From the NCBI GenBank assembly GCA_951406725.2, contig OX597821.1, positions 54,002,001 to 54,066,000 on the forward strand: a DNA stretch of 64,000 nucleotides. The letters are read 5' to 3'. Below are positions 12,540 to 28,918 of this stretch, in pieces. Position numbers and translations under genes: made by a program. Each line of letters opens with the position of its first letter. Within the stretch, counting starts at the first letter, position 1. The notes beneath the pieces were generated by a model that saw only the letters and a program-made list of their open reading frames with translations, made no database searches and had not been told where the DNA came from. This DNA comes from Octopus vulgaris. Its lineage: Eukaryota.

Positions 12540-13345
12540 GCTGTGGACTCACTTTATTTGCCAGGTCTTCTCAGTCACAGTATATCTCCAGAGGTCTCAG
12601 TCTTTTGTCATTGCCTCTGTGAGGCCAAATATTCGAAGGTCATGCTTCAACACCTCATCCCATGTATTCCTGGGTCTCCCTCTACCCCATATATCTTCCA
12701 CTGTTTGGGGAGTGACACTTCTTCACACAGCTCTCCTTATCCATCTGCAGTATGTGACCATACCAAAGCAAACATCTCTCTTGCATGCCACATCCGATGC
12801 TTCTTATGTCTAACATTTCTCTCAGGGCACTTACATTCTGTCGTGTGTGCACACTGACAATACGCATCCAACGGATCATGCTAGCTTCATTTCTTTTGAG
12901 CCTATGCATGTCTTCAGCAGTCTCAGCCCATGTTTCACTGCCATGAAGCATGGCAGTTCGCACACATGCATCATACAATCTACCTTTCACTCTGAGCGAG
13001 AGATCCTTTGTCACTAGCAGGAGTAGAAGCTTTCTGAACTTTGCCCAGGCTATTCTTATTCTTGTGGAAACACTCTCTGAGCATCCACTCCCACTACAGA
13101 CTTGGTCACTTAGGTAGTGGAAGCCATCAACTAGCCTCTTACCCTGGCATGTGATGGAGTCTGTTTTCTGAGCATCTGTGGTGTTTATTGCCCCTGTGCA
13201 CTTGCTGCACATGAAAGCTATCTTCACGGTTAATCTTCCTTGGATGTTGCTGCACCTCTTATGCGTCCATAGCTTACACTGGATACGTCTTATGGAGTTT
13301 CTGCCTACACCTTTTCTACAGATCGAGCAGTGCCACCTGCCTGAA
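12540..13345 (-). mobile_element. RTE-clade LINE, 3' fragment (C-terminal to RT)
   Basis: ORF 12682-13227: FHYLSD...RIRIAWAKFRKL...SLRVKGRLYDACVRTAMLHGSETW...MIRWM...LLWYGHILQM, typical of RTE ORF ends. Confidence 0.9.
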
Positions 13346-13574
13346 GGGGTGTGTGTGTATTTGTGTCTGTGTTTTTCCCCCCAACATCGCTTGACAACCG
13401 ATGCTGGTGTGTTTACGTCCCGTAACTTAGCAGTTCAGCAAAAGAGAATGATAGAAAAAGTACTAGGCTTACAAAAAATAAGTTCTGGGGTCAATTTGCT
13501 CGACTAAAGGCAGTGCTCCAGCATGGCCACAGTCAAATGACTGAAAGAGTAAAAGTAAAAGAGTAAAAGAGAGA

Positions 13575-24989: not shown

Positions 24990-25039
<50 letters not shown>

Positions 25040-25166
25040 AAATATAAGAGAGTTAACGTTAAATAGGTCAATTCTAGTATTCTGGTATAGCCGCCGACGA
25101 TACCTCCACATAGAAATAGCACTAGCCTCAACGTAAGGAAAGTGAAATACAACTAAAAAATAGATT

Positions 25167-25245
25167 AATGTTGTACAATTGTTTCTTTATCAATATAATA
25201 TGCAAATTACACTCACATATATATCTATAAATCATCAGCAACATT
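25167..25245 (-). ncRNA. Type I hammerhead ribozyme, intact core (minus copy)
   Basis: Reverse complement reads AATGTTG-CTGATGA-TTTAT...ATAAA-GAAA-CAATTG-TA-CAACATT. Confidence 0.88.
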
Positions 25246-25650
25246 TGTCATTGATACAATTTATCAGGCCTACACGAGCGACGATTACCCATGCGGTCTA
25301 ATCGATTGCATTCAGGGTTGTAGTTACAAGTTCCCCGCCAAAAGCATATGCTAAGACTTAGTGGAAGCGGATACCGCATGTAATATTTACTGCAGTGTAT
25401 CAATTTCATAAATTCAAAAATAAGGGTGAAAAATTAGATATTAATTTAATAATACCATTAGTTTAACACCAAGTGACCTTGCATTTATGAAATTGATACG
25501 CTGCAGTAAATATTACATGCGGTATCCACTTCCACTAAGTCTTAGCATATGCTTTTGGCGGGGAACTTGCAACTACAACCCTGAATGCAATCGATTAGAC
25601 CACATGGGTAATCGTCGCCCGTGTAGGCCTGATAAATTGAATCAATGACA

Positions 25651-25729
25651 AATGTTGCTGATGATTTATAGATATATATGTGAGTATAATTTGAATATTA
25701 TATTGATAAAGAAACAATTGTACAACATT
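25651..25729 (+). ncRNA. Type I hammerhead ribozyme, intact core (plus copy)
   Basis: AATGTTG-CTGATGA-TTTAT...ATAAA-GAAA-CAATTG-TA-CAACATT, with a 7-bp stem I. Predicted cleavage after GUA at 25722. Confidence 0.88.
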
Positions 25730-26019
25730 AATCTATTTTTTAGTTGTTTTTCACTTTCCTTACGTTGAGGCTAGTGCTATTTCTATGTGGAGGTATCATC
25801 GGCGGCTATACCAGAATACGGAGCTATTTCTAGCACTAGAGTTGACCTATTTAACGTTAACTCTTTTATATTTACGGATAAATATGTATCATCTCCCTGG
25901 TTTGTTATGTGCTAGGTCGCTCGGTGTTAAACTAATGGTATTATTAAATTAATATCTAATTTTTCACCCTTATTTTTGAATGTATATATATAATCTCTCT
26001 GGATCTTTCCTTCTCCTAT

Positions 26020-26054
26020 GTTTCTGACGAAGAGCTCCGCTCGAAACGTTAAAC
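26020..26054 (+). ncRNA. Minimal PLE-type hammerhead in a short repeat (25992-26155)
   Basis: GTTT-CTGACGA-A-GAGC-TCC-GCTC-GAAA-CG-TT-AAAC. Confidence 0.72.
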
Positions 26055-26799
26055 CCTCCTTCTTTCCTTCTTTCCTGAGCGTCCAATAATACTATATTTG
26101 TTCCACGTCCTCGCGTTGTTGTGTTTTTTGTGCTTTCTTGTTTGGATTAACTTTATATATATATATATAACAATAAACTACATCCAGCAGCAATGCCACT
26201 GATCTGGAGACTGGATGATCTGAGGAGTATGGAAACACATCTTTATTGTTATTGTTCCCAGGTTCTCCTGGTAGATAAAGGTCACACAGTGACACCCCCA
26301 ATGCCACCAAACTTTAACTTAAAATCTTCCTGCCAGTCACTCTGGCTGAGGAAGGTGAGGGCCTATAGATTTGGAGCTACAACTTCACAGGTGATCTTCA
26401 AAGATCTGGAGTCAGCATGTCACACCATGGCTGCCACAAAACAAGGGCCTGGTGTCATAGTGTATGATTTTCTGCCCAACAAGCTGTCGTCCACCTTAAA
26501 CAATTTCATGCCAATGGCTCATTTCAGCATCTTCTTCTGCTTCTTTCCTACTCCCCAAGTTTTACAAAAGTCCAAAGGTGATGGTATAAGGATGTTGGGA
26601 GCAGGCTGTAATGTAGCAGGAAGCTCCTGGTCCAGAGCTGCACTTCAGCAGCAGTTATGTGATGGTCAGTTTCCTATGACCTATGATGACACAGGAATCT
26701 GATCCTGCACCTGCGACTGGGCAGTCCTTTTTAGGAGTACTGCTGCCCACCTCAAATTGAGAAGGTCCAGTAGTCACATTATACACCTGGTTTATGGAA

Positions 26800-28605
26800 C
26801 TGCATTAGTGGGTCCTGCAATGTACGAACTCTCTTAGACTGAAAGGGCACAGAGTGTTCTGAGCAAAGAACAGTACTCGTTTCAAAGGAACTTGCCAGAT
26901 TCAAAGTTGACATTGCTGCTTTAAGTGAGACCTGCATACCAGAAGAAGGCCAGTGAGAAGAAACCAGAGCTTGTTACCCCTTCTTTTGGAAGGGCAAAAT
27001 CCAGAAAGGTCTGCATGACTATGGTGCTGGTTTCTACCATCAGGAGTCAGCTTGTCAGAAAGCACAGCCTGGCATCCAAAGCCATCAACAAGCACCTCAT
27101 AATAATATGCATTCCATGTCCTAAGATAATATGCATCCCACTTCATGACCCAGATATCTGCTTATGCCCCAGTACTTGATGCAGAGGAAGACATCAAAGA
27201 GGCATTTTAGCAGCAACTGGGTACCACTGTCTGACATGTTCCAAGGAGAGACCACCTCCTGCTCTTGGATGACTTTAATGCTTGAGTAGAACAGGACCAC
27301 CGATTATGGCCAAATATAACTAAGAGAGAAGAAATTGGAAACTGTAATGAAAATGGTCAGCTCCTTCTTGGCACCTGTGCTGAACATGAGCTGTTCATCA
27401 CAAGTACCCAGTCACAACTCACGACCTGGCATAAAACAACCTGGAAATACCCACAATCAAAAAAGTGGCACACTCTTGACTACATTGTAAGGTAGTGCCA
27501 TAAGAAGGACATTCTCATTGTCAGACGTATACCAGGGCTGATGACTGCAGGAAAGATCACCATCTGCTAATCACAAGACTAAAGTTAAACCTTTGTAGTA
27601 AACACTGAAATTGTTTACAAAATGAGGCAAGAAAATGGTATGATCTGACCAAGTTATGAGACCCAACTGTATCTGAGAACTTACAAATGGAATTCTAGCA
27701 GTGCCTTGCTTTGAACCCACCCAATAGGAAATCAATGAACACGGACTGAAATTTGAGAAGTGGTAAAAGATGCAGTTGAAATAGCCATTGGATTTAGAAG
27801 AAGGCAAACCAAGACTGATTTGATTAGTAAAGGCCTTGAAATGACAATGCTAACAGATGCAAAATGAAAAGCTTGAATTAGCTATGATCAAGACCCACAA
27901 TCGATAGAAGGAAACAGGTGGAATTTTAACGTCTGAAAGCTTAATGTCGAACCACACTAAAGGAAATGCAAAATAACCAATGGAAACAAAAGGGGCCGAA
28001 GAACTGCAGCACTTTGCCAACACCAGAGATCATTGCATCTTTAATGCAGGAACCAAGGTGATATATTGTCTGATCCAGTCCAGTCTGTAGTGGGGACCCT
28101 CCTGTCAGTAGACAACACCCGCTTGATGGAGAGTAATGGCATCCTTACATGACAGATAGAGGTCATGTTGGAACATTTCAATGCCCTGCTCAATAGGGAT
28201 ACAACTATTACAGATGATTGTCTAAACAAAGTTCCACAATACCTCCCTCAACTTTGGATGTCTGTTCCACCCATCTACAATGGATTTCATGTAGCATTGA
28301 GGTACATGCACCACAGAAAAGGTGCAGGTCCACACGAAATTCCTGCAGAGGTCCTCCTCCTACATGGTGGTCTACCCTTAATGATCCACCTGCACCCTTT
28401 GATCCTAGGAATGTGGGAAGCCAAATACATTGCAAATGAGTTTAAAGATGCACTCATTGTCACAATATTTAAGAAACGGGATTGTAACATCTGTGGCATT
28501 TACCTTGGTATATCATTATTCTCCATCACAAGGAAAATTCTTGCCGAAGAAACTCTGAACAGATTAGAAAACTTTGCAGACAACAGTCTGCCAGATGTTC
28601 TCTGA
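26800..28605 (+). mobile_element. RTE-clade LINE, APE endonuclease to start of RT, pseudogene
   Basis: DIAALSET...FFWKG, SAYAP, LLLDDFNA, NENGQLLL, WHTLDY, then KGAGPHEIPAEV and FKDALIVTIFKK...GISLFSITRKILA. Confidence 0.9.
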
Positions 28606-28742
28606 AGAGTACTATTATAAATCAAAATTCCCAGGAAATGACTGCCAACCAATGCACATATATATATGTACAAAATGTAACCACATGTGAATTGTTGGTG
28701 ATCTTTTTTCTTCTGTCTTTCTTTTCTATTCGACTTTCCTCT

Positions 28743-28777
28743 GTTTCTGAAGAAGAGCTTTGCTCGAAATGTAAAAC
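28743..28777 (+). ncRNA. Minimal PLE-type hammerhead (same repeat family as 26020)
   Basis: GTTT-CTGAAGA-A-GAGC-TTT-GCTC-GAAA-TG-TA-AAAC, with CG>TG decay in stem III. The downstream flank is similar to 26055-26150. Confidence 0.68.
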
Positions 28778-28918
28778 CACCTTTCTTTCCTTCCCCGAGT
28801 ATCTGCTAATATTTTACATGTACCACGTCCTTGCATTGTTGTATCTTTTGTGTTTGTTCTTCATTTTTTGGGATTTACATATATATATGTGTGTGTGTGT
28901 AAACATATATATACACAT

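What the first reader, a model, noticed from the sequence alone, without database searches (positions are those of the whole stretch)
25035..25981. Direct sequence evidence of circular permutation in a 497-nt HHR unit
The plus copy runs ATTTATGAAATTGATAC...(HHR)...CACCCTTATTTTTGAAT, about one monomer. The adjacent minus copy contains those two ends fused (CCCTTATTTTTGAATTTATGAAATTGATAC, across ~25413), so the template was circular or tandem. Both HHR cores are intact and their differences fall in the stem II insert. The back-to-back layout matches the inverted 5' segments known from PLE insertions.
Basis: partly seen in the sequence, partly recalled or inferred. Interest (0 to 1): 0.85.

Follow-up and report, generated by a model that had tools for sequence, protein, structure and literature searches.

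The report
Hammerhead retrozyme with Penelope-type insertion
This is one aged copy of a family of protein-free, roughly 500-base mobile repeats that carry a predicted self-cutting hammerhead RNA and land in TA repeats as two back-to-back arms; the kind is known, and the family's copies suggest, without proving, that they are copied from a circular RNA by a Penelope-type retrotransposon enzyme.

Summary
The layout is real. A plus arm of one 497-nt unit (25484-25981) sits back to back with a minus arm (25483 to ~25034) that runs through the unit's end-to-start junction. Each arm has a type I hammerhead whose stems covary across relatives.

The junction is not special to this locus. It is the ordinary head-to-tail join of a dispersed non-coding family (25 of 66 loci), and position 1 is no natural start.

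The family carries Penelope-like (PLE) insertion marks: partial tandems, inverted arms, (TA)n targets, and two fixed 3' ends 102 nt apart. In 34 of 35 classifiable two-armed loci, each arm ends at a different one.

The junction alone shows only 'tandem or circular'. Better support for a circle comes from other loci: arrays of up to ~5.6 near-identical units, and 0 of 103 5' ends at the ribozyme cut. This locus has one ribozyme per strand, so it cannot release a monomer. No RNA evidence and no autonomous partner were found.

Verdict: new member of a known kind (animal non-LTR retrozyme / non-autonomous PLE). The scan reported this kind before on other DNA of this genome.

The parts
25484..25981 (+). 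Plus arm: one full 497-nt unit (q1-498), 3' end at the distal fixed end E2
25034..25483 (-). Minus arm: q427-498 joined to q1-~396, 3' end at the proximal fixed end E1; carries a private 17-nt deletion (plus-arm 25818-25834)
25397..25426 (-). Head-to-tail junction q498|q1 (join at 25412)
   Evidence: same join in 25 of 66 family loci
25651..25729 (+). Type I hammerhead: stem I 7 bp, core CUGAUGA 25658-25664, long stem II 25665-25710, GAAA 25711-25714, 1-bp stem III with palindromic loop, predicted cut 25722/25723
   Evidence: cleavage untested; this copy alone does not fold as a hammerhead in the MFE
25167..25245 (-). Type I hammerhead of the minus arm, predicted cut 25174/25173
   Evidence: centroid forms stems I and II
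25880..25981 (+). 102-nt tail between the two fixed 3' ends E1 (q396) and E2 (q498)
25483..25484 (.). Head-to-head inversion point, 1-nt overlap, no spacer
24991..25033 (.). Left (TA)n target flank
   Evidence: 96 of 101 outer ends in the family abut (TA)4
25982..25992 (.). Right short (TA)n target flank

Best explanation
The locus is a single insertion of a non-coding ~497-nt hammerhead repeat (an animal non-LTR retrozyme) that was likely pasted into a TA microsatellite by a Penelope-like retrotransposon protein acting in trans, probably from a circular RNA monomer. Shown: the unit, its head-to-tail join, the covarying hammerhead, the two fixed 3' ends with one per arm, TA targets, and multi-unit arrays in relatives. 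Inferred steps: (1) a source locus with two or more same-strand ribozymes is transcribed and the ribozymes, likely as dimers through the palindromic loop III, cut out a monomer that a host ligase would close; (2) a PLE RT-GIY-YIG protein nicks both strands of (TA)n and starts two cDNAs inside the RNA, one at E1 and one at E2; (3) each cDNA runs for a variable length, round the circle when long, and the two 5' ends are joined, giving head-to-head arms. This copy got 1.0 unit on one arm and ~0.94 on the other, and has since decayed ~2% per arm.
For: Family of dispersed copies: 1349 first-look candidates, 40 scored. 25 of 66 distinct loci hold the join. Of 41 loci with two outward 3' ends, 34 are E1+E2, 1 is E1+E1, 0 are E2+E2 and 6 have a broken end; P~1e-9 for 34 of 35 against a 50:50 mix. 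Sister family C (72% identical, 493 nt): 10 of 10 classifiable two-armed loci are E1+E2, out of 23 loci. Hammerhead pairs over 48 sequences: 93.2% of cells paired, 9 of 25 pairs with changes on both sides, 0 of 500 shuffles as high, slid controls 28-47%. For a re-read monomer: 15 tandem pairs show 68 differences in 2277 nt and no fixed upstream-versus-downstream difference; L260 crosses the join twice with 0 mismatches over ~405 nt; the units of L298 and the arms of L299 share locus haplotypes; 0 of 103 5' ends lie within 8 nt of the cut and 58 of 111 chains read through it. An anole PLE protein nicks and extends both strands of AT-rich DNA and starts RT at two internal sites that bound the tail (PMC11167929).
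Against: No autonomous partner found: no DNA homology of the unit to the 3' regions of 70 of 74 fetched PLE-coding stretches. Loci able to release a monomer are rare in family A: 1 of 66 and 3 of 29. In PMC11167929, ribozyme-dead RNA inserted as well as wild type and uncut RNA was the main substrate, so read-through of the cut site does not need a circle. In the longest array (L296) one variant recurs in 2 of the 5 units covering that site, which one monomer circle does not explain. The tail is 102 nt against 30-40 nt reported for PLEs. End-rule exceptions exist (L104 E1+E1; family B L166 E2+E2). Loci were picked by similarity or motif, not at random.
Confidence: 0.6

Rival explanations
1. Same non-autonomous PLE passenger, but the template is a linear, uncut multimeric read-through RNA. 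Tandems are rebuilt by in-register template jumps and kept alike by gene conversion or local duplication; the ribozyme has some other role, such as 5' processing or turnover.
For: Uncut RNA was the dominant substrate in vitro (PMC11167929). 58 of 111 chains cross the cut site. The recurring variant within L296 fits a multimer or local duplication. 5' ends of short copies bunch at q92-140, which could mark a transcription start.
Against: A linear two-repeat master should build fixed differences between its repeats; none were seen. Chains cross the join up to five times with a single haplotype. The stems keep covarying across families 60-72% alike, so the fold is under selection.
Confidence: 0.3
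2. The unit is only the pseudo-LTR left by 5'-truncated copies of a longer coding PLE.
For: All insertion marks are those of PLEs. One family-B locus (L169/L196) adjoins PLE coding DNA.
Against: Upstream of the tail lies the unit again, in arrays up to ~5.6 units. Only 1 of 160 non-PLE loci had PLE protein matches, and that PLE has its own different 3' end.
Confidence: 0.06
3. Assembly fold-back or a local DNA rearrangement made the inverted layout.
For: Inverted repeats next to microsatellites are assembly-prone; no read spans the locus.
Against: The arms differ by 15 substitutions and a deletion, both outer ends are exactly the family's fixed ends, and 34 loci show the same pairing.
Confidence: 0.04

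Closest known systems
Metazoan non-LTR retrozymes (Cervera and de la Pena 2020, PMC7229834, passages; review PMC7761336, passages)
   Same: Non-coding, AT-rich tandem unit of a few hundred bases with one type I hammerhead per unit and a weak helix III; proposed circRNA intermediate mobilised by PLEs.
   Different: Unit 497 nt (150-450 quoted there); mostly short partial tandems; 46-nt stem II; inverted arms and two fixed ends, which those passages do not describe ('inverted' 0 hits in PMC7229834). circRNA is shown for coral, mussel and axolotl, not here.
[quoted passage not shown]
   Same: Same conclusion on PLE origin; unit lengths 51-972 bp include ~497.
   Different: Their link is co-occurrence and pLTR homology, mostly in vertebrates. 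Here the link is the insertion footprint and no homologous pLTR was found. They saw cleavage in 1 of 9 dimers tested.
EN+ Penelope-like elements (Neptune, Poseidon, Naiad; PMC8557442 and PMC3846280, passages; PMC11167929, parts 1-2 of 4; PMC4209133, passages)
   Same: Partial tandems, adjacent inverted 5'-truncated copy, a tail often at one end only, AT-rich or microsatellite targets, type I hammerhead with palindromic loop III, two internal RT start sites.
   Different: No RT-GIY-YIG ORF; whole unit ~0.5 kb; tail 102 nt rather than 30-40 nt.
Non-autonomous Chlamys PLEs such as MRC1 (PMC8557442, passage)
   Same: Non-coding PLE passengers with pLTR-like and multicopy head-to-tail insertions.
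   Different: Those generally resemble an autonomous family at the 3' end; no such partner was found here.

Membership tests
Animal non-LTR retrozyme | Type I hammerhead in each unit | tested here: met
   (core conserved, stems covary)
Animal non-LTR retrozyme | Head-to-tail repeats of a few hundred bases | tested here: met
   497-nt period; join in 25 of 66 loci; arrays to ~5.6 units in sister family C
Animal non-LTR retrozyme | No protein coding | tested here: met
   ATG ORFs in the unit are 53 and 55 aa at most; no PLE protein match in the window
Animal non-LTR retrozyme | At least two consecutive same-strand hammerheads ('active' definition of the 2026 preprint), at this locus | tested here: not met
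   One ribozyme per strand here. Met elsewhere in the family: L020, L260, L264 and family C arrays
Animal non-LTR retrozyme | Circular RNA accumulates in vivo | tested here: inconclusive
   Only assembled contigs of guessed RNA runs were available
Animal non-LTR retrozyme | Self-cleavage | not testable with these tools
   needs in vitro transcription
Animal non-LTR retrozyme | Target-site duplication longer than 4 bp when present | tested here: inconclusive
   Ends lie in (TA)n, which hides a duplication
Animal non-LTR retrozyme | No LTR, tRNA primer site or polypurine tract | not tested
   no tRNA-complement search was run
Autonomous EN+ PLE | ORF with RT and GIY-YIG endonuclease | tested here: not met
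PLE-mobilised (non-autonomous) element | Partial tandem plus adjacent inverted 5'-truncated copy | tested here: met
PLE-mobilised (non-autonomous) element | [quoted passage not shown] | tested here: met
   34 of 35 and 10 of 10; length 102 nt, longer than the 30-40 nt reported
PLE-mobilised (non-autonomous) element | AT-rich or microsatellite target | tested here: met
   96 of 101 outer ends
PLE-mobilised (non-autonomous) element | Sequence homology to the pLTR or 3' end of an autonomous PLE | tested here: not met
   none in 70 PLE 3' regions, drawn from the top 148 of 6136 GIY-YIG candidates; Naiad ends were not examined, so the search is incomplete

The most novel reading that the evidence does not exclude
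These ~500-nt families are circular ribozyme RNAs that a PLE protein copies by priming both strands of a TA target at two different fixed sites on the circle at once, rolling past unit length. That would explain in one model the PLE tail, the inverted arm and the tandem pseudo-LTR, and would give a minimal 0.5-kb substrate for the unsolved PLE integration mechanism.
Probability: 0.45. Interest if true: 0.65.

Novelty: new member of a known kind. Interest (0 to 1): 0.4.

Why it matters
How PLEs build tandem and inverted insertions, and what their hammerheads do, is open (PMC8557442, PMC11167929). Which enzyme moves animal retrozymes is proposed, not shown. These short families put the PLE footprint on a retrozyme in countable form (one arm per fixed end; no 5' ends at the cut; single-haplotype arrays) and offer young natural multimers (L260, L296, L298) for direct tests. 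The class is already described, this copy is aged and cannot release a monomer, and the scan has noted the same kind repeatedly in this genome, so added value is moderate.

Tried and rejected
Rfam scan of the window at gathering thresholds: 0 matches.

RNA search: no RNA holder listed on record; only contigs. Laying them on the window and on L260 gave short pieces and no informative joint or molecule end. This says nothing for or against expression or circles.

Partner hunt: GIY-YIG search, 74 PLE stretches examined, no homology in 70 oriented 3' regions. A non-unit sequence upstream of one tail (L130) led to an unrelated low-copy repeat. Four unit motifs had 0 hits in the one supplement file held for PMC8557442, of which I saw only metadata rows; consensus sequence files may not be held, so this blank is weak. 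A weak shared terminal motif between the unit's E2 and Neptune-type ends was seen by eye and not tested.

The 53-aa ORF at q4 is rejected: the start codon is missing in other subfamilies. The idea that q1 is a natural start or a one-round stop is rejected. 5'-end clusters at q336-348 and q383-398 were not interpreted: they coincide with an alignment indel and a TA-like stretch.

Whole-unit folding as a circle: z -2.0 (L020) and -5.0 (L260), moderately paired and not rod-like; the MFE closed stem I across the ligation point for L020 but not for L260.

Paper searches for a description of this family found none, within an open-access library only.

Full report
Observation. With q1 = window 25484, the plus arm is q1-498 (period 497) and the minus arm reads q427-498 then q1-~396, joined at 25412. 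Both arms hold a type I hammerhead with a 7-bp stem I, an intact core, a 46-nt stem II and a 1-bp stem III with a palindromic loop; the plus cut site is 25722/25723. Rfam gave 0 matches at gathering thresholds. The arms differ by 15 substitutions along the unit and by a 17-nt deletion found only in the minus arm; 2 substitutions are in the ribozyme, both in the stem II insert. The element is flanked by (TA)n on both sides.

Family. The window lies in a 2.8-Gb genome. Earlier scan notes call it octopus; I did not test that. A DNA search gave 1349 first-look candidates, 40 scored. From 115 fetched loci, 81 were distinct with a match and 66 were kept as family A. The 15 dropped were sister-family or weak matches. 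Selection was by similarity or motif, not random. 25 of 66 hold the q498|q1 join. In a sample picked only for q16-43, 28 of 29 loci continue upstream through the join (read by eye from the printed flanks), so q1 is simply the base after a fixed end and not a start. Two colinear sister families exist: B (~534 nt, 60% identical, 4820 candidates) and C (493 nt, 72% identical).

Two fixed ends. Copies end at q~396 (E1) or q498 (E2), and 96 of 101 outer ends abut (TA)4. Of 41 family-A loci with two outward 3' ends, 34 have one E1 and one E2, 1 has E1 twice, none has E2 twice, and 6 have a broken end (P~1e-9 for 34 of 35). In family C, 10 of 11 two-armed loci among 23 are E1+E2 and 1 has a broken end. 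Family B was not tallied; it shows one E2+E2 locus (L166). The window's locus is a typical E1+E2 case. PLE papers describe a 30-40-nt tail often present at one end only (PMC8557442, PMC3846280, passages), and the anole PLE protein nicks and extends both strands and starts RT at two internal sites bounding the tail (PMC11167929, parts 1-2 of 4). Here the tail is 102 nt.

Ribozyme. On 48 sequences from families A and B, the hammerhead structure I named had 93.2% of cells paired, 9 of 25 pairs changed on both sides, and 0 of 500 shuffles as high; slid controls were 28-47%. The sequences are related, so the shuffle count is not a probability, but stem I occurs in at least four compensated versions, and family C adds a fifth. 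Family C has C in place of U at core position 4. The plus copy in the window does not fold as a hammerhead on its own, while the minus copy's centroid does. Cleavage is untested.

Circle or linear template. The join shows only that the template was tandem or circular. For a re-read monomer: 15 tandem pairs have 68 differences in 2277 nt, with only two sites recurring twice, both in the pyrimidine/TA-like stretch, and some pairs share rare variants (8 in L014). L260 crosses the join twice with no mismatch over ~405 nt. Family C arrays reach ~5.6 units plus an inverted arm, and units within L298 or L299 share a locus haplotype. No 5' end (0 of 103) lies within 8 nt of the cut, and 58 of 111 chains read through it, which argues against cut linear monomers. 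Against: two full same-strand ribozymes occur in only 1 of 66 and 3 of 29 family-A loci; uncut RNA was the main substrate in vitro (PMC11167929); one variant recurs in 2 of 5 units of L296; gene conversion or local duplication could also make repeats alike. The window's locus has one ribozyme per strand and cannot release a monomer. The circle model was already proposed for PLEs and retrozymes (PMC4209133, PMC7761336, passages).

Partner. The genome holds many RT-GIY-YIG elements (6136 candidates, 148 matches; Pfam). I call them Neptune-type from the zinc-finger-like motif before the nuclease (described in PMC8557442); no tree was built. They also end in (TA)n and one family shows two ends ~39 nt apart. 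No DNA homology to units A or B was found in 70 oriented 3' regions of 74 stretches, some the same place twice. Three PLE proteins matched 1 of 160 non-PLE loci and not the window. At that locus a PLE is joined to family-B arms with no TA run and 7 nt of microhomology. This could be a template switch or a deletion between neighbours, and is weak evidence. Naiad ends were not examined.

RNA. No holder on record as RNA; contigs only; inconclusive.

Comparison and verdict. It works like a non-autonomous PLE and fits animal non-LTR retrozymes on ribozyme, tandem unit and lack of coding; circles and cleavage are unshown. The PLE origin of animal retrozymes is argued in a 2026 preprint (10.64898/2026.07.22.740005, parts 1-3 of 5 read; supplements not seen). 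My searches found no description of this family or of the end-pairing count, within an open-access library. The scan's earlier notes report the same kind, with the same two-end pattern, on other DNA of this genome; my reading was recorded before seeing them. New member of a known kind; interest 0.4.

Noticed in passing
window 25996-26130 (+), second copy 28737-28793: A separate, very high-copy ~135-nt repeat with a minimal hammerhead-like motif (core at 26024) sits 15 nt right of the element; contig depth is far above the unit's.
   Followed up: partly
window 8731 (+), 18190 (+), 45674 (+), 19579 (-): Further hammerhead-like motif matches from a simple pattern scan, each with a different sequence; no chance control was run.
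   Followed up: no
L296 1307-4141; L297; L298; L299: Young sister family C (493 nt) with arrays of 3-5.6 near-identical units and inverted arms; hammerhead core has C at position 4. Best material for bench tests.
   Followed up: partly
L196 / L169 (G000:C12:44.25-44.26 Mb): A Neptune-type PLE joined through an inverted coding fragment to family-B arms without a TA run; outer ends are the PLE 3' end and B's E2.
   Followed up: partly
L109 268-3968, L113, L111, L107: Abundant PLE family with a second upstream ORF (479 aa stop to stop, no Pfam match) overlapping the 781-aa RT-GIY-YIG frame, and a variant hammerhead-like motif near its 3' end.
   Followed up: partly
family A, q92-140: 5' ends of short copies bunch here (16 of 103), possibly a transcription start or an RT stall; the sampling is biased.
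   Followed up: no
window 12682-13434 (-), 28153-28605 (+): Stop-to-stop ORFs that look like fragments of LINE-type retrotransposons (by eye).
   Followed up: no
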